DNA from: a virus
Taxonomy: Duplodnaviria; Heunggongvirae; Uroviricota; Caudoviricetes
Virus record (IMG/VR): IMGVR_UViG_2602041644_000001
DNA: 31,107 nucleotides
Strand: one strand, 5' to 3'
This document shows positions 3,726-30,411 of the stretch, piece by piece. Position 1 is the stretch's first letter. The number at the start of each line of letters is the position of its first letter. A model generated the notes under the pieces. That model had not been told where the DNA came from. It searched no databases and saw only the letters and a list, made by a program, of their open reading frames with translations. A program made the position numbers and the translations under genes.

Positions 3726-4721
3726 GTGACCGTGAGAGCACTACTGACCCCTGAAATTGCCCCGCGTATGGGGATCGTATTGTTCAGGCCAGGTTCAGAG
3801 CTGATGCCCCTGTTTATGCAGGGGCGTGTCCTGCTGGAGCCTGAGCCGGAGCGTTATTCATCTTTCGCCAGTGGTGCCGTTCCGGCGGCATCACAACCGC
3901 TGGCGGATGATCCTGCCGTTCGGGCCGTGTTCCGCAATGAGGCAGTGATCCGTCGTGCTGGTGGCGTGGAATGTCTTGAAAGCTGGTTACTTCGTGAAAA
4001 AGGCTGCCAGTGGCCTCATTCCGACTGGCACAGCGAGAACATGACCACAATGCGACACGCGCCGGGCGCAATCCGTCTGTGCTGGCACTGCGATAACCAG
4101 CTGCGCGATCAGTTCACGGAACGGCTGGAATCAATGGCAACGGATAACTGTGTCCGGTGGGTGTTATCTGTCGTGCGTCGGGATCTCGGTTTTGATGACA
4201 GTCACGTTGTGACAATGCCGGAACTGTGCTGGTGGCTGATTCGTAATGATCTGGCGGATGCCTTACCGGAAAGTGCAGCCCGTAAGGCACTGAGATTACC
4301 GAAGCCTGTTGTGCCGTCTGTTACCCGGGAAAGTGACCTTGTGCCTTCGGTTCCTGCCACCAGCATCATCCAGGATAAGGCGAAAAAGGTGCTGGCGCTG
4401 AAAGTGGATCCGGAGTCGCCGGAGTCTTTTATGTTACGCCCAAAACGTCGCCGCTGGGTTAATGAAAAGTACACGCGCTGGGTTAAGACACAGCCGTGTG
4501 CATGTTGTGGAAAGCCTGCTGATGATCCCCACCACCTGATAGGCCACGGTCAGGGGGGAATGGGTACAAAAGCGCATGACCTCTTTGTGTTGCCTTTGTG
4601 CAGAAAGCATCACGACGAGTTGCATGCGGATACCGTGGCATTTGAAGAGATGTATGGCTCCCAGCTGGAGCTGATATTTCGTTTTATCGATCGTGCGCTG
4701 GCAATAGGCGTACTGGCGTAA
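3726..4721 (+). CDS. DUF968-like protein (YdfU-like) with C-terminal Cys/His metal-binding motif
   Basis: C-terminus CACCGKPADDPHHLIGHG...HDLFVLPLCRKHHDELH. Sits next to the Q-like gene as ydfU does in Qin. Start uncertain (GTG at 3726; ATG at 3768 possible). Confidence 0.6.
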   Translation: MTVRALLTPEIAPRMGIVLFRPGSELMPLFMQGRVLLEPEPERYSSFASGAVPAASQPLADDPAVRAVFRNEAVIRRAGGVECLESWLLREKGCQWPHSDWHSENMTTMRHAPGAIRLCWHCDNQLRDQFTERLESMATDNCVRWVLSVVRRDLGFDDSHVVTMPELCWWLIRNDLADALPESAARKALRLPKPVVPSVTRESDLVPSVPATSIIQDKAKKVLALKVDPESPESFMLRPKRRRWVNEKYTRWVKTQPCACCGKPADDPHHLIGHGQGGMGTKAHDLFVLPLCRKHHDELHADTVAFEEMYGSQLELIFRFIDRALAIGVLA

Positions 4722-4734
4722 GTGGAGAACGAGC

Positions 4735-5487
4735 ATGAACCTTGAAGCCTTACCGAAATATTACTCCCCAAAATCTCCAAAATTGAGCGATGACGCACCG
4801 GCGACAGGCTCTGGTGGTTTAACAATTACGGATGTAATGGCTGCGCAGGGGATGGTGCAGTCGAAAGCACCGCTTGGGTTTGCCTTATTCCTGGCAAAAG
4901 TTGGTGTTCAGGATCCTCAGTTTGCGATTGAAGGTCTGCTCAATTACGCGATGGCACTGGATAACCCGACATTGAACAAATTGAGTGAAGAAACCCGGCT
5001 ACAGATCATTCCTTACCTTGTGAATTTTGCCTTTGCTGATTATTCCAGGTCTGCGGCAAGTAAGGCTCGCTGTGAGCATTGTGCTGGTACTGGATTTCAT
5101 GATGTATTGCGCGAGGTGGTGAAACACTCCAGAAGCGGGGAATCTGTTATCAAGGAAGAGTGGGTGAAGGAACTGTGTCAGCATTGTCATGGTAAGGGAG
5201 AAGTCAGCACAGCGTGCAGAGGGTGTAAGGGTAAAGGTATTGTCCTGGATGAAAAAAGAACCCGGCTTCATGGCACGCCTGTTTATAAGGTTTGTGGGCG
5301 TTGCAATGGAAACCGGTTTAGCCGTTTACCAACCACACTGGCGCGGCTTCATGTCCAGAAGCTGGTACCAGACCTGACGGATTATCAGTGGTACAAAGGA
5401 TATGCAGATGTCATTGATAAACTGGTTACAAAGTGCTGGCAGGAAGAAGCGTATGCTGAGACACAATTGAGGAAAGTGACGAGATGA
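4735..5487 (+). CDS. Putative late-gene antiterminator Q (QuuQ-like, four CxxCxGxG zinc-finger repeats)
   Basis: 250 aa with CEHCAGTG, CQHCHGKG, CRGCKGKG, CGRCNGNRF repeats. Immediately upstream of a strong promoter and intrinsic terminator, and of the lysis cassette. Confidence 0.6.
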   Translation: MNLEALPKYYSPKSPKLSDDAPATGSGGLTITDVMAAQGMVQSKAPLGFALFLAKVGVQDPQFAIEGLLNYAMALDNPTLNKLSEETRLQIIPYLVNFAFADYSRSAASKARCEHCAGTGFHDVLREVVKHSRSGESVIKEEWVKELCQHCHGKGEVSTACRGCKGKGIVLDEKRTRLHGTPVYKVCGRCNGNRFSRLPTTLARLHVQKLVPDLTDYQWYKGYADVIDKLVTKCWQEEAYAETQLRKVTR

Positions 5488-5518
5488 ATGATTTTCGACG
5501 AAAATGGCGACATGATGC

Positions 5519-5547
5519 TTGCATTTTTCAAAAAAAATGGATAATAT
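5519..5547 (+). promoter_or_regulatory. Putative late promoter (pR'-like)
   Basis: TTGCAT (5519-5524), 17-nt spacer, TAATAT (5542-5547), directly downstream of the Q-like gene. Confidence 0.5.
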
Positions 5548-5593
5548 TATCTCAATGATAGGCATTGTGTGTCCGGCTTTAATAAAAAGTAGA

Positions 5594-5620
5594 AAACCCG
5601 CTGATGTGCGGGTTTTTTTT
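5594..5620 (+). terminator. Intrinsic terminator (tR'-like)
   Basis: Hairpin CCCGC-TGATGT-GCGGG followed by T8. Confidence 0.7.
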
Positions 5621-5698
5621 CGGAATTTTAGATGTGTGGCATTGAAATGGTATTCGGCGAGTAGGTAGAATTTAAACTTTCGTCTCGTCTGGATCGAC

Positions 5699-6241
5699 AT
5701 GATGTTTCAAGCCTTCCAAACAGCAGTATTTAAAAATGTTGCAGAGTATTTAAAAGGGCGCTTCCCTCATAAGTCGTTAGGGCTCGTATATGCCGACGAG
5801 CTGGTACTAAAAGATATGGAGTTCCTCAAGGCTAACAATAAACTGCGGTGGGATCCCGGACTAAAGTCGCGAGTGTTTATGGATATGATGGAAGAACACC
5901 CGATAAAACTAGTTGTTTATTATCGTGGGGAGCCTATTGGATTTGCATTTGGGTGTTACTGTAAGCCGAAAAATGCGGTGCATATTTGCTGGATGGAAAA
6001 ACGTAATGATGCACATGAAGACCTAGACCATCAGATGCTTGGTATCGTTTTGGATTGCTTCTCTGCATATGCACGATTTCTGAACCTTCAGGGTGAATCT
6101 ATTGATTCGATAGCTTTAGTTAGTCCAGTTGATGGGGCAATAAGATACTATACTGAAAGTGGTTTTGAGTACATTGCTGATTACGAACGAGGTGGTTGCG
6201 CAATGGTGCTTAGGAGCGTTTTACCTAACCAATCAGTGTGA
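5699..6241 (+). CDS. Cargo protein, possible GNAT-like acetyltransferase fold
   Basis: 180-aa ORF in a visibly AT-rich island. Segment MLGIVLDCFSAYARFL...AIRYYTESGFEY loosely fits GNAT motifs A/B. No confident family assignment. Confidence 0.5.
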   Translation: MMFQAFQTAVFKNVAEYLKGRFPHKSLGLVYADELVLKDMEFLKANNKLRWDPGLKSRVFMDMMEEHPIKLVVYYRGEPIGFAFGCYCKPKNAVHICWMEKRNDAHEDLDHQMLGIVLDCFSAYARFLNLQGESIDSIALVSPVDGAIRYYTESGFEYIADYERGGCAMVLRSVLPNQSV

Positions 6242-6432
6242 GTTAGATTCTTAATTTCTCCAGAATCATTACAAAAGTATTGAAAACCTCTTTTAGTTGA
6301 TGCAATCTGGATCCACACAAAGCACACACAAAATGTACTACGCTTTACTTTATACATCTTCAGGTAACAAACTTTGTTGCCTTTATGCTTCAAAGAAGCA
6401 ACTACAGCTTAGTGCTGAACAAGGGGATTTTT

Positions 6433-6618
6433 ATGAAACATCATGAGCAGATAGAGATTGAGGCAGCTAAAGTCGTCGCCGAACTCTTTGCTGGCAATGC
6501 ATCTCCAATGGAAACCTTTGGTATTACATGGAGTCAAACTCAGATGTTAGAGCGTAAGAATCCTGGTGTAGTGATCAAACTAGTACCGGATGACGGTAAA
6601 AAACTTGCGTATTGCTGA
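6433..6618 (+). CDS. Small hypothetical protein (61 aa)
   Basis: ATG at 6433 with AAGGGGA RBS. AT-rich context, followed by an intrinsic terminator. Confidence 0.45.
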   Translation: MKHHEQIEIEAAKVVAELFAGNASPMETFGITWSQTQMLERKNPGVVIKLVPDDGKKLAYC

Positions 6619-6676
6619 TAATTTTTAAAGATTTTTTCAGCTAGAGAATCGATTATTTTACTATAAATCGCGAAGG

Positions 6677-6705
6677 AGCCCCACATATTGTGGGGCTTTT
6701 TGTTT
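6677..6705 (+). terminator. Intrinsic terminator
   Basis: Hairpin AGCCCCA-CATATT-GTGGGGCT followed by a T-run. Confidence 0.6.
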
Positions 6706-6875
6706 CATCTTAGTTAGCCGTTATTCACATTCACTACTTTGCTACTTATCCACTGTAAAAATAAATTGTGAATTATTTTGTGGCTTATTGTTAGTGTTCT
6801 ATCAATTTTGTGTGTGATATTCCATTGGCGTGGTTATTATCTGTGCATCGCACTTAAATGTATAAAGCTCACTAG

Positions 6876-7190
6876 TTGAGACAATCCTACCACCAGTTGG
6901 TGGTATCTCATGATTCACTGAATTGCAAATCTTCTGAATTGCTGGATGAGTTTAAATCTCACCGGCGCTATTTCTCCGTATCAGTCTCCGTGCCTTATAC
7001 CGATGTCAGGACGCATAAGCCCGTTCAGTTCTACCCGGGTAAACATCCGTGCGAGAAACCGGCGGATATGCTCAGGCAAATAATCAATGCCAGTAGTCGA
7101 CCTGGTGATCTGGTTGCTGATTTCTTTATGGGATTCGGTTCCACAATAAAAGCAGCAATGGCGCTGGGGCGTCGGGCGTTAGGTGTTTAA
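6876..7190 (+). pseudogene. C-terminal remnant of an N6/N4 DNA methyltransferase
   Basis: Only the C-terminal AdoMet-binding part is present (HPCEKPADMLRQII, DFFMGFGST ~ HPTxKP / FxGxG). The N-terminal ~35 codons are unrelated and there is no DPPY motif. Coding status of the remnant unknown. Confidence 0.6.
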
Positions 7191-7326
7191 CTTGAGTCAG
7201 AGCGGTTTAATCAGACGGTGAAAGAGGTAAGTGAACTGGTGGGGAAATAATTCTGGTGGCCACGTTGCGTGGCCTTTTTATTTCCAACACAGCACCCGCA
7301 AATATCGCGAGGTGAGAGATGACGAA

Positions 7327-7653
7327 ATGCCTCATAACCCAAATACCTGGCTGGACTTGGTCCAGAGCTGGTGGCGTGGAGACACACCGCTGGGTGCAGT
7401 GATTATGTCGATCGTTATGGCTGGTTTGCGCATCGCCTATTTTGGCGGTGGTGGTGGCTGGAAGCGAAAAACGCTCGAAATTCTACTCTGTGGCGCTCTG
7501 ACGCTGACTTTTGCATCCGCTCTTGAGTATGTCGGATGGCCTAAATCACTTTCTGTTGCCATTGGTGGTGGGGTGGGGCTGATCGGTGTCGATGCTATTC
7601 GTGGGGCTGCAATGCGAGTAATCGGTAACAAATTTGGTGGCTCTAAGGAGTAA
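7327..7653 (+). CDS. Class I holin (lambda S-like, three TMDs)
   Basis: Three predicted hydrophobic helices and a charged C-terminus, immediately upstream of the R lysozyme. ATG at 7327 chosen (RBS GAGGTGAGAG) over the longer 7231 ORF. Confidence 0.8.
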   Translation: MPHNPNTWLDLVQSWWRGDTPLGAVIMSIVMAGLRIAYFGGGGGWKRKTLEILLCGALTLTFASALEYVGWPKSLSVAIGGGVGLIGVDAIRGAAMRVIGNKFGGSKE

Positions 7654-7656
7654 TTT

Positions 7657-8133
7657 ATGCAGGTACTAAATTCCCAGCGTAAAGCTTTCCTTGATATGGT
7701 GGCTTGGTCAGAAGGAACGGATAACGGACGACAACCGACACGTAACCACGGTTATGACGTTATTGTCGGTGGTGAACTCTTCACTGATTACTCCGATCAC
7801 CCTCGCAAACTTGTCACGCTAAACCCGAAACTCAAGTCAACAGCCGCCGGACGTTACCAGCTTCTTTCACGCTGGTGGGATGCTTACCGTAAACAGCTTG
7901 GCCTGAAAGATTTTTCTCCAGAAAGCCAGGACGCTGTAGCTCTGCAGCAGATTAAAGAGCGTGGCGCTTTACCGATGATTGACCGTGGCAATATTCGTCA
8001 GGCAATCGACCGTTGCAGCAATATTTGGGCTTCATTGCCCGGTGCTGGCTACGGTCAGTATGAACACAAGATCGATAGTCTGATTGCCAAATTCAAAGAA
8101 GCTGGCGGGGTGGTTAATGAAACTTCGCTATAA
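7657..8133 (+). CDS. R: Endolysin, lambda R-type lytic transglycosylase
   Basis: Near-identical to lambda R as recalled (NSQRKAFLDM.AWSEGTDNGRQ.TRNHGYDVIVGGELFTDYSDHPRKLVTLNPKLKST.AGRYQLLSRWWDAYRKQLGLKDFSP). Confidence 0.95.
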   Translation: MQVLNSQRKAFLDMVAWSEGTDNGRQPTRNHGYDVIVGGELFTDYSDHPRKLVTLNPKLKSTAAGRYQLLSRWWDAYRKQLGLKDFSPESQDAVALQQIKERGALPMIDRGNIRQAIDRCSNIWASLPGAGYGQYEHKIDSLIAKFKEAGGVVNETSL

Positions 8134-8509
8134 GCTGGTTATTTCTGCTTTCCTCCTGACTTTATTCGGTTCTCTCGTCTGGTCAGCTAACCACTACCAC
8201 AGCAAATACCAGCGCGAAAAGAAACGTGCTGATGAGGCTGTACAAAATGCCGAATCGGCAACCGCTATTACCAATAACGTCCTGCAATCACTGCAAATCG
8301 TCAATACAGTTCTGGAGGCTAACCAGCATGCAAAACAGCAGATCGCACTGGAGTCACAGAGAACCCAGGCTGATATCAAAGTGGCTGTTGCGGATGATGA
8401 TTGTGCTGTACGCCCTGTGCCTGCTGCCGCTGCTGACCGGTTGTGGAAGTACGCGAACAGTTTACGTGAGCATTCCGAAGACTCCACTACCAGTCAGCTT
8501 GACTTCTGA
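8117..8509 (+). CDS. Rz-like inner-membrane spanin (i-spanin)
   Basis: N-terminal TMD (LVISAFLLTLFGSLVWSANHYH, cf. lambda Rz ...WAVNHY) and charged coiled-coil periplasmic domain. Overlaps the R stop. Confidence 0.75.
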   Translation: MKLRYKLVISAFLLTLFGSLVWSANHYHSKYQREKKRADEAVQNAESATAITNNVLQSLQIVNTVLEANQHAKQQIALESQRTQADIKVAVADDDCAVRPVPAAAADRLWKYANSLREHSEDSTTSQLDF

Positions 8510-8642
8510 TACACCTGTACCGTTTATACCCAACCCACTGACGTATGGTGCAAGTCTTGATTTGAATGTAAGTTTGTTATCCGCGTTGGCTCAATGTAAT
8601 AGGGATAAGTCAGATATCAGAATCATTGATAATCAAAATTGA
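8394..8642 (+). CDS. Rz1-like outer-membrane lipoprotein spanin (o-spanin), overlapped type
   Basis: +1 frame relative to Rz. Lipobox LLTGC after a hydrophobic signal, proline-rich mature region. Extends 133 nt past the Rz stop. Confidence 0.7.
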   Translation: MMIVLYALCLLPLLTGCGSTRTVYVSIPKTPLPVSLTSDTPVPFIPNPLTYGASLDLNVSLLSALAQCNRDKSDIRIIDNQN

Positions 8643-8846
8643 TGTATATTTTTATCGTCATGTAGATAACGAACAAGGTATTCCTCTGATACGTATTCGT
8701 TGAATACAGGTCATGGGTAGGCATTGCAATATCGCTTCGAAATTATCTGTGATAATGCTCTTAATTTTGAATGTATGTATTTGGGAAAAGAGATAAAGTA
8801 ATAGTCTAATTAATGGAGATATCCACAAAACACAAAAGGGACTATT

Positions 8847-9353
8847 ATGAGACCAGATCAATTTTTCTATCCAGATACTTTTACCTTTAATTCATCCACC
8901 TATTATGGTCAACGTGACTCATCTAAAGGCCGATTGTATATTCCTATTGAAAGTGACTTATGCCCATTTAATATCGGCGATATCATTGTGCAAAAAATGG
9001 TCGACAGGGAAAGACTATTTGAAGTGCTTGATTACGAGGTGCAAATTAGTCTCGAGGTTGGTTGCCCTGGCTACTCACATTTGGCGGTATTGATAGTGAA
9101 GGCATTGGATGTAAAAGAGAAGCCGAAGCAGATTACGACCCATTTGACGTTTAACGGTGCTATTAATGCTGGTGGTGATTTTCAAGCCGGTAATGATAAT
9201 TCGATCACAAAGAATATAACCATTCAACAACTACATGATGCTATAGAGCATTGCAATGATCCAGAGGTTAAAAGCCTTTGGCAAAAGCTATTGGAAAATC
9301 CGACGTTTGCTTCAATTGCTTCAATATTGGCAAAAAGTGCTTTAGGACAGTAA
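8847..9353 (+). CDS. Hypothetical cargo protein (168 aa), no recognisable family
   Basis: AT-rich island between the lysis and packaging modules. RBS AAAAGGGA, own AT-rich upstream region and own intrinsic terminator. Confidence 0.6.
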   Translation: MRPDQFFYPDTFTFNSSTYYGQRDSSKGRLYIPIESDLCPFNIGDIIVQKMVDRERLFEVLDYEVQISLEVGCPGYSHLAVLIVKALDVKEKPKQITTHLTFNGAINAGGDFQAGNDNSITKNITIQQLHDAIEHCNDPEVKSLWQKLLENPTFASIASILAKSALGQ

Positions 9354-28867: not shown

Positions 28868-28921
28868 TGCAGAAATAACGAGCAAATGGCATCATTCCTG
28901 CTTTTGCTAGGGAGATCTACC

Positions 28922-29476
28922 ATGCTTATTGGCTATGTACGTGTGTCAACAAATGACCAGAACACAGATCTACAACGTAATGCGCTGAACTGTGCAGGAT
29001 GCGAGCTGATTTTTGAAGACAAGATAAGCGGTACAAAGTCCGAAAGGCCGGGACTGAAAAAACTGCTCAGGACATTATCGGCAGGTGACACTCTGGTTGT
29101 CTGGAAGCTGGATCGGCTGGGGCGCAGTATGCGGCATCTGGTCATTCTGGTTGAGGAGTTGCGCGAACGTGGCGTTAATTTTCGCAGCCTGACGGATGCT
29201 ATTGATACCAGCACACCGATGGGGCGTTTTTTCTTTCATGTGATGGGTGCCCTGGCTGAAATGGAACGAGAACTGATTGTTGAACGAACAAAAGCTGGAC
29301 TGGAAGCTGCTCGCGCACAGGGACGAATTGGGGGACGTCGTCCCAAACTTACACTAGAACAATGGGCGCAGGCCGGGCGATTAATTGCATCAGGCATTCC
29401 TCGCCAGAAGGTGGCGATTATCTATGATGTTGGTGTGTCAACTTTGTATAAGAGGTTTCCTGCAGGGGATAAATAA
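28922..29476 (+). CDS. pin: Serine DNA invertase (Pin/Gin/Hin family)
   Basis: MLIGYVRVSTNDQ catalytic N-terminus and C-terminal HTH. 184 aa like e14 PinE. ATG 28922 after GGGAGA. Confidence 0.95.
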   Translation: MLIGYVRVSTNDQNTDLQRNALNCAGCELIFEDKISGTKSERPGLKKLLRTLSAGDTLVVWKLDRLGRSMRHLVILVEELRERGVNFRSLTDAIDTSTPMGRFFFHVMGALAEMERELIVERTKAGLEAARAQGRIGGRRPKLTLEQWAQAGRLIASGIPRQKVAIIYDVGVSTLYKRFPAGDK

Positions 29477-29577
29477 AGTTAAAGACACTTTGTGTACAAA
29501 ATAAAACAACAGCAACTTGTTGCAATTTTATCAATAAAAGTAGTATTGTCGTAAAAAATTGATTAAAGATTAATGCT

Positions 29578-30411
29578 ATGCATGTTTTTGATAATAATGG
29601 AATTGAACTAAAAGCTGAGTGTTCGATAGGTGAAGAGGATGGCGTTTATGGTCTAATCCTTGAGTCGTGGGGGCCGGGTGACAGAAACAAAGATTACAAT
29701 ATCGCTCTTGATTATATCATTGAACGGTTGGTTGATTCTGGTGTATCCCAAATCGTAGTATATCTGGCGTCATCATCAGTCAGAAAACATATGCATTCTT
29801 TGGATGAAAGAAAAATCCATCCTGGTGAATATTTTACTTTGATTGGTAATAGCCCCCGCGATATACGCTTGAAGATGTGTGGTTATCAGGCTTATTTTAG
29901 TCGTACGGGGAGAAAGGAAATTCCTTCCGGCAATAGAACGAAACGAATATTGATAAATGTTCCAGGTATTTATAGTGACAGTTTTTGGGCGTCTATAATA
30001 CGTGGAGATCTATCAGAGCTTTCACAGCCTACAGATGATGAATCGCTTCTGAATATGAGGGTTAGTAAATTAATTAAGAAAACGTTGAGTCAACCCGAGG
30101 GCTCCAGAAAACCAGTTGAGGTAGAAAGACTACAAAAAGTTTATCTCCGAGACCCGATGGTAAAAGCTTGGATTTTACAGCAAAGTAAAGGTATATGTGA
30201 AAACTGTGGTAAAAATGCTCCGTTTTATTTAAATGATGGAAGCCCATACTTGGAAGTGCATCATGTAATTCCCCTGTCTTCAGGTGGTGCTGATACAACA
30301 GATAACTGTGTTGCCCTTTGTCCGAATTGCCATAGAGAATTGCACTATAGTAAAAATGCAAAAGAACTAATCGAGATGCTTTACGTTAATATAAACCGAT
30401 TACAGAAATAA
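29578..30411 (+). CDS. mcrA: McrA-type modified-cytosine restriction endonuclease (HNH)
   Basis: 277 aa. C-terminal HNH motif (HHVIPLSSGGADTTDNCVALCPNCHRELH) with CxxC pairs. Sequence and position after pin match e14 McrA as recalled. AT-rich gene. Confidence 0.85.
   Translation: MHVFDNNGIELKAECSIGEEDGVYGLILESWGPGDRNKDYNIALDYIIERLVDSGVSQIVVYLASSSVRKHMHSLDERKIHPGEYFTLIGNSPRDIRLKMCGYQAYFSRTGRKEIPSGNRTKRILINVPGIYSDSFWASIIRGDLSELSQPTDDESLLNMRVSKLIKKTLSQPEGSRKPVEVERLQKVYLRDPMVKAWILQQSKGICENCGKNAPFYLNDGSPYLEVHHVIPLSSGGADTTDNCVALCPNCHRELHYSKNAKELIEMLYVNINRLQK

What the first reader, a model, noticed from the sequence alone, without database searches (positions are those of the whole stretch)
5650..6870. 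AT-rich cargo island after the late terminator: GNAT-like 180-aa protein plus a 61-aa ORF
Between the tR'-like terminator and the lysis cassette, where lambdoid phages carry lysogenic-conversion or defence cargo, lies a ~1.2 kb block much more AT-rich than the flanking phage DNA. It encodes a 180-aa protein with a tentative GNAT-like core (MLGIVLDCFSAYARFL…AIRYYTESGFEY) and, 190 bp downstream, a 61-aa protein with good RBS and its own terminator. I recognise neither as a standard phage structural or lysis protein. A GNAT toxin with a small partner, or an anti-defence acetyltransferase, are both possible, and this is one of two top candidates for an undescribed accessory function.
Basis: partly seen in the sequence, partly recalled or inferred. 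Interest (0 to 1): 0.7.

Follow-up and report, generated by a model that had tools for sequence, protein, structure and literature searches.

The report
Prophage cargo: acyltransferase-like enzyme plus partner
An AT-rich insert in an E. coli prophage carries two always-linked genes of unknown function, an enzyme with an acetyltransferase-type fold and a 61-residue partner, which move together between cargo slots of many phages and genomic islands, sometimes next to anti-phage defence genes, so they are a good candidate for an undescribed accessory (probably defence-type) system.

Summary
Window 5621-6888 is a 1.27-kb AT-rich block (GC 0.39 against 0.52). It starts right after the tR'-like terminator downstream of Q and ends at a 5'-truncated DNA methylase, just before the lysis genes. 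It holds a 180-aa ORF (5699-6241) and a 61-aa ORF (6433-6618).

The main new result is that the small gene follows the large one in every locus with enough downstream sequence. This holds down to about 26% identity and across Enterobacterales, Vibrio and Psychrosphaera. The pair sits in at least six kinds of cargo slot, including the P2 gpA-gpQ defence hotspot, and mostly has a promoter-like site upstream and a terminator downstream.

It is therefore a self-contained two-gene "moron". It fails the defining features of the GNAT-RHH toxin-antitoxin family. Function is untested. My best guess, at about 0.4, is a lysogen-protecting enzyme plus small regulatory partner. It is undescribed, moderately interesting and easy to test.

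The parts
5593..5620 (+). tR'-like intrinsic terminator downstream of Q: hairpin AAAACCCGC/GCGGGTTTT plus a T run. It marks the left edge of the cargo slot.
   Evidence: Read from the sequence. The same hairpin was called on the minus strand. It is conserved with mEp460, and homology ends just after the T run.
5642..5671 (+). Sigma-70-type promoter-like site TTGAAA-18-TAGAAT, ending 27 nt before the p180 start codon.
   Evidence: 10 of 12 consensus matches. A comparable site ends 27-37 nt upstream of the homologue in 11 of 20 diverse loci, against about 5% expected per locus. This is a consensus match only, with no transcript data.
5699..6241 (+). p180: a 180-aa GNAT-fold protein from a new sequence family (phrog_11949, function unknown).
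6242..6432 (+). 191-nt non-coding spacer. It holds a conserved box at 6280-6309 (TTGAAAAC...TGATGCAATCTG) and a terminator-like hairpin at 6362-6382.
   Evidence: Spacer alignment. Hairpin. Spacers are 82-237 nt in all loci. No reading frame in the spacer is conserved between subgroups.
6433..6618 (+). p61: a 61-aa partner protein (phrog_11292, function unknown). It has three short helices and a disordered tail that carries a cysteine.
6673..6701 (+). Intrinsic terminator that closes the cassette.
   Evidence: 13-pair stem with 6 G-C pairs, followed by a T run. A terminator follows the p61 homologue in 19 of 20 loci.
6702..6888 (.). AT-rich tail of the insert, origin unknown.
   Evidence: Found only in the same 98 E. 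coli genomes that carry the cassette. It does not align with what lies downstream of the cassette in the four related loci compared (L020, L022, L024, L036).
6876..7190 (+). 3' remnant of an N6/N4 DNA methylase gene. It marks the right edge of the slot.
   Evidence: PF01555 profile positions 156-209 only. RefSeq calls it a pseudogene missing its N-terminus. The gene is full length, 348-350 aa, in mEp460 and in locus L036.

Best explanation
This is a self-contained two-gene 'moron' cassette, carried as cargo by temperate phages and other mobile elements of gamma-proteobacteria.

Gene 1 encodes a divergent GNAT-fold transferase-like enzyme. Gene 2 encodes an obligate 56-65-aa partner with a small helical domain and a flexible tail that bears a cysteine.

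The cassette appears to bring its own sigma-70 promoter and terminator. It could therefore be expressed from the repressed prophage and also be read through late in infection.

My committed mechanism is inferred, not shown. The small protein binds and restrains or directs the enzyme. The pair benefits the lysogen, most probably by excluding or aborting infection by other phages: a toxin/antidote-like or sensor/effector-like defence module with the enzyme gene first.

Shown here: the anatomy, the fold, the strict pairing, the mobility, and the cargo or hotspot locations. Inferred: promoter activity, physical interaction of the two proteins, enzymatic activity and any defence phenotype.

For: Pairing.
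- A p61 homologue lies 82-237 nt downstream of every p180 homologue that has downstream sequence, down to about 26% identity.
- Pairwise identities of the two proteins correlate at r=0.93, and p61 has dN/dS 0.04-0.06.

Cassette behaviour.
- A promoter-like site ends 27-37 nt upstream in 11 of 20 loci, against about 5% by chance.
- A terminator follows the pair in 19 of 20 loci.
- GC is 0.39 against 0.52 for the window.

Mobility. The same pair sits in these places:
- between Q and the lysis genes, in phages with different Q and holin families;
- after Rz/Rz1;
- between lambda-like tail genes K and I;
- next to integrases at prophage ends;
- in the P2 gpA-gpQ region, which Rousset et al. 2022 showed to be a defence hotspot (PMC9122126);
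- between chromosomal genes.

Neighbours include an AbiP/AbiC-like gene, PADLOC candidates PDC-S33 (a RelA/SpoT-type protein) and PDC-S49, HicB-like genes and a pyocin.

The cassette is intact, at 99.6% identity or more, in all 98 of 5426 complete E. coli genomes that carry it. GNAT-domain proteins have precedent as single-gene phage defences (Brc113 and BrcP, bioRxiv 10.1101/2024.07.02.601719).
Against: There are no functional data of any kind. Neither protein matches a PADLOC defence model.

Hotspot and neighbour association is circumstantial. Only 3 of 10 neighbours tested hit PADLOC. Many contexts are simply 'cargo', which also fits anti-defence or conversion genes.

A terminator-like hairpin lies between the two genes in 10 of 20 loci. 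That is awkward for an antidote that must be made in excess, unless p61 has its own promoter. A promoter-like site was seen there in only about 6 of 21 loci, and not in this window.

p61 has no recognisable DNA-binding fold.

The beta4-alpha3 loop reads EKRNDAHEDLD rather than Q/RxxGxG/A, so acetyl-CoA use is uncertain.
Confidence: 0.4

Rival explanations
1. Lysogenic-conversion enzyme. p180 acylates a small molecule or a host protein, for example a basic antibiotic, a peptide-nucleotide toxin, a polyamine or a protein N-terminus. This changes host physiology or resistance. p61 would be an accessory subunit.
For: The top structural neighbours are RimI and other N-alpha-acetyltransferases, a glycylthricin acetyltransferase and a putative streptothricin acetyltransferase. 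The p180 family is acidic, pI mostly 4.7-6.5, which suits basic substrates. The cassette seems to have its own promoter, so it could be expressed in lysogens. One homologue lies next to a chloramphenicol acetyltransferase. Some homologues lie between ordinary chromosomal genes.
Confidence: 0.2
2. Anti-defence module. p180 inactivates a host immune protein or signal by acylation, as AcrVA5 acetylates Cas12a. p61 would act as the operon's regulator, like an Aca protein.
For: A phage-borne GNAT with anti-CRISPR activity exists (AcrVA5; abstracts). The cassette is short, mobile and phage-borne. An orphan p61 fragment sits beside a Tad2-like gene in Xenorhabdus bovienii.
Confidence: 0.15
3. Enzyme-substrate pair. 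p61 is the substrate. Its conserved N-terminal domain docks on p180, and its variable Cys-bearing tail is acylated, which would yield a modified small protein that is the real effector.
For: p61 has a conserved helical N-part (residues about 14-44) and a hypervariable, disordered tail. That tail still contains a Cys in 30 of 32 homologue clusters. This resembles a leader/core layout. Strict co-inheritance fits. GNAT-like enzymes that use other acyl donors, such as FeeM and FemA, are among the structural matches.
Against: No export, protease or further tailoring genes travel with the pair. The Cys position is not fixed, and two clusters lack it. Nothing points to a particular chemistry.
Confidence: 0.1
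4. A canonical GNAT-RHH type II toxin-antitoxin system of the TacAT/AtaRT/KacAT type, whose toxin acetylates aminoacyl-tRNA.
Confidence: 0.05

Closest known systems
GNAT superfamily acetyltransferases (closest solved structures: RimI 5isv, glycylthricin acetyltransferase OrfE 7ypu, Naa20, Naa40)
   Different: There is no detectable sequence relationship, single-sequence or profile, to Pfam or PDB. Profile-profile comparison with E. coli RimI aligns only beta2-beta3. The beta4-alpha3 loop is acidic and glycine-free (EKRNDAHEDLD) instead of Q/RxxGxG/A. There is an extra N-terminal helix. There is an obligate small partner gene.
GNAT-RHH type II toxin-antitoxin systems (TacAT, AtaRT, KacAT, ItaRT)
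   Same: A two-gene module on mobile elements with one GNAT-fold protein and one small protein. It may work in a similar way, with the enzyme restrained by a small partner that has a flexible tail.
   Different: The small gene is downstream, not upstream. It is separated by a long spacer and has no RHH/DUF1778 fold. The enzyme is acidic and lacks the canonical CoA loop. In AtaT a G108D change blocks acetyl-CoA binding (PMC7595197). By memory that glycine lies in this same CoA loop, but I could not align the two proteins residue by residue.
Morons of lambdoid phages, in the sense of Hendrix and colleagues (from memory): for example, the different cargo in the same slot of mEp460
   Same: A promoter-like site, a terminator, deviant base composition, and presence or absence between genes that are adjacent in relatives.
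   Different: 'Moron' describes architecture, not function. This one is an obligate two-gene unit whose contents are undescribed.
AcrVA5, a phage GNAT that acetylates Cas12a
   Same: A phage-borne GNAT-type enzyme that acts on another protein.
   Different: No sequence relationship was tested or found. The partner is not a helix-turn-helix regulator. The cassette also lives outside phages.
Brc113 and BrcP, integron-cassette phage-defence proteins with a GNAT domain
   Same: Small mobile cassettes encoding a GNAT-type protein, reported to protect against phages.
   Different: They are presented there as single proteins. Their relationship to p180 was not tested because the sequences were not at hand.

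Membership tests
GNAT superfamily (fold level) | Mixed alpha/beta fold beta1-alpha1-alpha2-beta2-beta3-beta4-alpha3-beta5-alpha4-beta6-beta7 | tested here: met
GNAT superfamily (sequence families such as Pfam Acetyltransf_1) | Significant match to a curated GNAT profile | tested here: not met
   The window protein matched no family at E<=1. Among 32 family members, 2 reached only E=0.11 to PF00583. The family profile found nothing in PDB sequences.
GNAT superfamily (acetyl-CoA users) | Q/R-x-x-G-x-G/A pyrophosphate-binding loop between beta4 and alpha3 | tested here: inconclusive
   The loop reads R102-N-D-A105-H-E-D-L-D. Arg and a small residue are in register, but there is no Gly and the loop is rich in Asp and Glu. 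The register rests on secondary structure and a partial hhalign with RimI, not on a superposition.
GNAT superfamily (active enzymes) | Catalytic general acid or base (commonly a Tyr in alpha4 and a Glu on beta4 or beta5) and measurable acyl transfer | not testable with these tools
   Y151 and E100 are invariant or nearly invariant and lie where such residues usually sit. Activity needs biochemistry.
GNAT-RHH (DUF1778) type II toxin-antitoxin | RHH/DUF1778 antitoxin gene immediately upstream of the toxin gene | tested here: not met
GNAT-RHH (DUF1778) type II toxin-antitoxin | Compact bicistronic operon | tested here: not met
   The spacer is 82-237 nt in 20 loci, and 10 of them have a terminator-like hairpin in it.
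GNAT-RHH (DUF1778) type II toxin-antitoxin | Positively charged tRNA-binding surface, and acetylation of aminoacyl-tRNA | tested here: inconclusive
   Only a proxy was available. The p180 family has pI mostly 4.7-6.5, whereas AtaT uses a positively charged dimer interface. No surface calculation or assay was possible.
Moron (self-contained phage cargo unit) | Own promoter and own terminator | tested here: met
   Consensus-level evidence only. TTGAAA-18-TAGAAT lies at 5642-5671 and a terminator at 6673-6701. The promoter-like site recurs in position in 11 of 20 loci and the terminator in 19 of 20.
Moron (self-contained phage cargo unit) | Deviant composition, and insertion between genes that are adjacent in related phages | tested here: met
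   GC is 0.39 against 0.52. mEp460 has other genes in the same slot. In Erwinia the pair sits between tail genes K and I.
Anti-phage defence system | Match to a known or candidate defence protein model | tested here: not met
   Neither protein hit PADLOC-DB v2.
Anti-phage defence system | Residence in experimentally validated defence hotspots or next to defence genes | tested here: met
   Vibrio homologues lie between gpA/ogr and portal gpQ of P2-like prophages. This is the hotspot of PMC9122126. Neighbours hit AbiP, PDC-S33 and PDC-S49. This evidence is circumstantial.
Anti-phage defence system | Protection phenotype | not testable with these tools
   Needs cloning and phage challenge.
Acr-Aca anti-CRISPR operon | Downstream helix-turn-helix Aca regulator in a compact operon | tested here: not met

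The most novel reading that the evidence does not exclude
The pair is a new kind of two-component system in which the 60-aa protein is the enzyme's dedicated substrate rather than its inhibitor. Its conserved helical domain would dock on the GNAT-fold enzyme. Its hypervariable, Cys-bearing tail would be acylated, possibly from a donor other than acetyl-CoA given the glycine-free acidic loop. The result would be a modified small protein that acts as the effector in phage-host or phage-phage conflict.
Probability: 0.1. Interest if true: 0.8.

Novelty: new variant of a known kind. Interest (0 to 1): 0.55.

Why it matters
Prophage cargo slots have been a productive source of new immune and counter-immune systems. 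This cassette is small (about 1 kb) and apparently self-contained. It is intact in 98 of 5426 complete E. coli genomes, including O157:H7 strains. It has spread through Enterobacterales, Vibrio and Psychrosphaera into at least six kinds of cargo position. Yet neither protein belongs to any described family.

If the pair is a defence or counter-defence system, it would add a GNAT-fold effector with a new type of small partner to the known repertoire. It would also give a function to two PHROG families now labelled 'unknown'. If it is a conversion enzyme, it would mark a trait that phages move between enteric pathogens. Either way, one cloning experiment can test it.

Tried and rejected
- Sequence-family searches found nothing for either protein, apart from the PHROG 'unknown function' families: Pfam, NCBIfam, PADLOC, and PDB by single sequence and by profile.
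- The afdb50 fold library was not available. BFVD gave only generic GNAT matches.
- Profile-profile comparison with genuine E. coli RimI aligned only beta2-beta3. The state of the CoA loop therefore rests on a hand alignment.
- Rfam found nothing above threshold in 5400-7300.
- I tested for an operator-like palindrome in front of p61. It exceeded shuffles in only about 5 of 20 loci, so I rejected it as a general feature.
- I tested for a hidden conserved small ORF in the spacer. No frame is conserved between subgroups.
- Literature searches for a described GNAT-plus-small-protein prophage or defence system found only the single-gene Brc113/BrcP precedent.
- I rejected spurious ORFs and a composition artefact, because of purifying selection, conserved ORF length and the statistics of the GC dip.

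Full report
**What the window is.** The window is an E. coli prophage. Bases 5500-7000 are identical to NZ_CP145634.1 and 99.9% identical to the isolated phage vB_EcoM-689R6.

The RefSeq annotation of the identical prophage, converted to window coordinates, gives this order:
- a DUF968 gene;
- antiterminator Q (4735-5487, PF03589);
- two hypothetical genes;
- a methylase pseudogene missing its N-terminus (6876-7190);
- a lambda-family holin (7327-7653);
- a lysozyme (7657-8133);
- Rz and Rz1.

**Check of the observation.** The 180-aa ORF (5699-6241) and the 61-aa ORF (6433-6618) are present, 191 nt apart. The second has an AAGGGGA ribosome-binding site and is followed by a strong terminator at 6673-6701.

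Upstream, a hairpin followed by a T run at 5593-5620 follows Q. GC is 0.388 over 5488-6875 against 0.521 for the window. Only 1.8% of equal-length windows are as low. GC3 of the two ORFs is 0.37-0.38, against 0.46-0.57 for the flanking genes.

Phage mEp460 has the same Q and the same terminator. Homology then stops just after the T run. mEp460 carries an unrelated lipoprotein-like gene and a 67-aa gene, followed by a full-length methylase. Homology to the window resumes at 6889. The block 5621-6888 is therefore exchangeable cargo, and its arrival went with loss of the 5' two-thirds of the methylase gene.

**The large protein.** p180 matches nothing in Pfam, NCBIfam, PADLOC or PDB sequences. 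Its only hit is PHROG 11949, 'unknown function'.

The family is small. It has 28 clusters in 5.8 billion proteins and 25 representatives in an exhaustive HMMER scan of 1.84 billion. All members are 173-197 aa apart from a few fragments. A family profile still finds no Pfam or PDB relative.

Family-conserved residues include Y74, Y75, G81, G85, E100, K101, Y124, P143, Y151, F156 and Y162. By hand alignment on the 'A..YY..GF' motif, Y151 falls on the tyrosine I recall as RimI's catalytic Tyr115.

The beta4-alpha3 loop normally carries Q/RxxGxG/A. Here it reads EKRNDAHEDLD and contains no glycine. In AtaT a G108D change blocks acetyl-CoA binding (PMC7595197). From memory that glycine lies in the corresponding CoA loop, but I could not align the two proteins residue by residue. 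The hhalign with genuine RimI covers only beta2-beta3, so I rate the cofactor site as undetermined.

The family is mostly acidic, with pI of 4.7-6.5.

**The small protein and the pairing.** This is the main new result. In all 31 loci found by pattern scans, a p61 homologue lies downstream of the p180 homologue. The same holds for the most distant members, looked up one by one:
- Vibrio vulnificus (35% identity);
- Psychrosphaera (about 26-28% identity);
- metagenomic members;
- a Citrobacter/E. coli lineage.

The only loci lacking it are cut off by a contig end.

The small proteins are homologous throughout. They share the core LFAxGxSPMExFGxxWxQxxxLERxxP. Pairwise identities of the two proteins correlate at r=0.93, and p61 has dN/dS 0.04-0.06.

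One truncated orphan copy was seen in a decayed Xenorhabdus prophage.

**Cassette architecture.**
- A sigma-70-like site (TTGAAA-18-TAGAAT, 5642-5671) ends 27 nt before p180.
- A comparable site ends 27-37 nt upstream in 11 of 20 diverse loci, against about 5% expected by chance per locus. The binomial P is about 1e-9, but the loci are not fully independent.
- A terminator follows p61 in 19 of 20 loci.
- The spacer is always long (82-237 nt) and has no conserved reading frame.
- The spacer contains a terminator-like hairpin in 10 of 20 loci, including 6362-6382 here.
- A conserved box at 6280-6309 is unexplained.

**Where the cassette travels.**
- Between Q and the lysis genes, in phages with different Q families (PF03589, PF06530) and different holin families.
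- After Rz/Rz1 and before the terminase, beside a pyocin gene, in Pragia.
- Between lambda-like tail genes K and I in Erwinia.
- Between gpA/ogr and the portal gene of P2-like Vibrio prophages, once beside an AbiC/AbiP-like gene. Rousset et al. showed this locus to be a defence hotspot (PMC9122126).
- At prophage ends next to integrases.
- In integrase or transposase islets.
- Next to a HicB-like gene and a chloramphenicol acetyltransferase.
- Next to a RelA/SpoT-type protein that matches PADLOC PDC-S33.
- Next to a PDC-S49 candidate.
- Between ordinary chromosomal genes in marine metagenome contigs.

In E. coli, 98 of 5426 complete genomes carry it. Each has a single copy, intact and at least 99.6% identical.

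**Interpretation.** Architecture and behaviour meet every criterion of a moron. The obligate pairing argues that the two proteins work together.

The known GNAT-RHH toxin-antitoxin family is excluded on organisation: there is no upstream RHH/DUF1778 gene, the order is reversed, the spacer is long and the enzyme is acidic. A toxin-first module in which the small protein restrains the enzyme remains a reasonable way for it to work. Together with the apparent own promoter and the hotspot and neighbour associations, this makes a lysogen-protecting defence or exclusion role my best guess, at about 0.4.

Three rivals remain open:
- a conversion or resistance enzyme with an accessory subunit (0.2);
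- an anti-defence enzyme (0.15);
- an enzyme with its dedicated substrate (0.1).

None of these is tested.

**Novelty and verdict.** I found no description of this pair in the libraries or papers searched. The nearest precedent is single-gene GNAT-domain defence cassettes in integrons. I class it as a new variant of a known kind: a GNAT-fold protein in a phage moron, with an undescribed obligate partner and a divergent cofactor loop. Interest is moderate, at 0.55. The finding is not surprising in kind, but it is well defined, widespread, undescribed and directly testable.

Noticed in passing
window 8847-9353: A second AT-rich cargo-like ORF of 168 aa (GC 0.39, GC3 0.35) lies just after the lysis cassette and before the HNH and terminase genes. 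It matches only PHROG 5789 (unknown function), with no NCBIfam or PADLOC hit and only a weak sub-threshold Pfam match (PF21615, E=0.14).
   Followed up: partly
window 6280-6309: A conserved non-coding box, TTGAAAAC...TGATGCAATCTG, lies in the spacer between the two genes. It is kept in subgroups whose proteins are only 45-65% identical. A terminator-like hairpin follows about 55 nt later. It could be a promoter plus attenuator, a small RNA or a binding site.
   Followed up: partly
window 6702-6888: An AT-rich 187-bp tail of the insert is found only in the 98 genomes that carry the cassette. It contains a 33-codon, very hydrophobic ORF at 6778-6879 with a TTG start.
   Followed up: partly
window 6876-7190: An N6/N4 DNA methylase is reduced to its C-terminal 104 codons. 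The same gene is full length in mEp460 and in locus L036, where it follows the cassette.
   Followed up: yes
window 28886-30411: The lowest-GC stretch of the window holds a serine invertase-type recombinase (28886-29476). It also holds a 277-aa protein with a C-terminal HNH motif (29578-30411), which I recognise from memory as McrA-like. Here it gave only sub-threshold HNH-type NCBIfam matches.
   Followed up: partly
L052 (phage mEp460) 1316-2159: mEp460 fills the same Q-to-methylase slot with a different pair: a 138-aa protein with a lipoprotein-type signal and a 67-aa protein. They are 223 nt apart and unrelated to p180 and p61.
   Followed up: partly
L051 (Xenorhabdus bovienii) 4211-5162: A truncated orphan p61 homologue (53 aa) sits directly after a Tad2-like/DUF7823 gene, downstream of Q, in a decayed prophage with no p180.
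   Followed up: no
L033 (Pragia fontium) 7444-9037: A Pyocin_S-domain gene and a 100-aa gene lie inside a prophage, between the cassette and the terminase.
   Followed up: no
plasmid CP044351.1 39590-40100: A p180 homologue (67% identity) on a conjugative E. coli plasmid aligns in three pieces, so it may be disrupted.
   Followed up: no
L053 1356-2245 and L054 871-1760: In marine metagenome contigs the two-gene cassette sits alone between a thermostable-hemolysin-family gene and glyoxalase-family, pirin and GST genes. No phage genes are in view.
   Followed up: no
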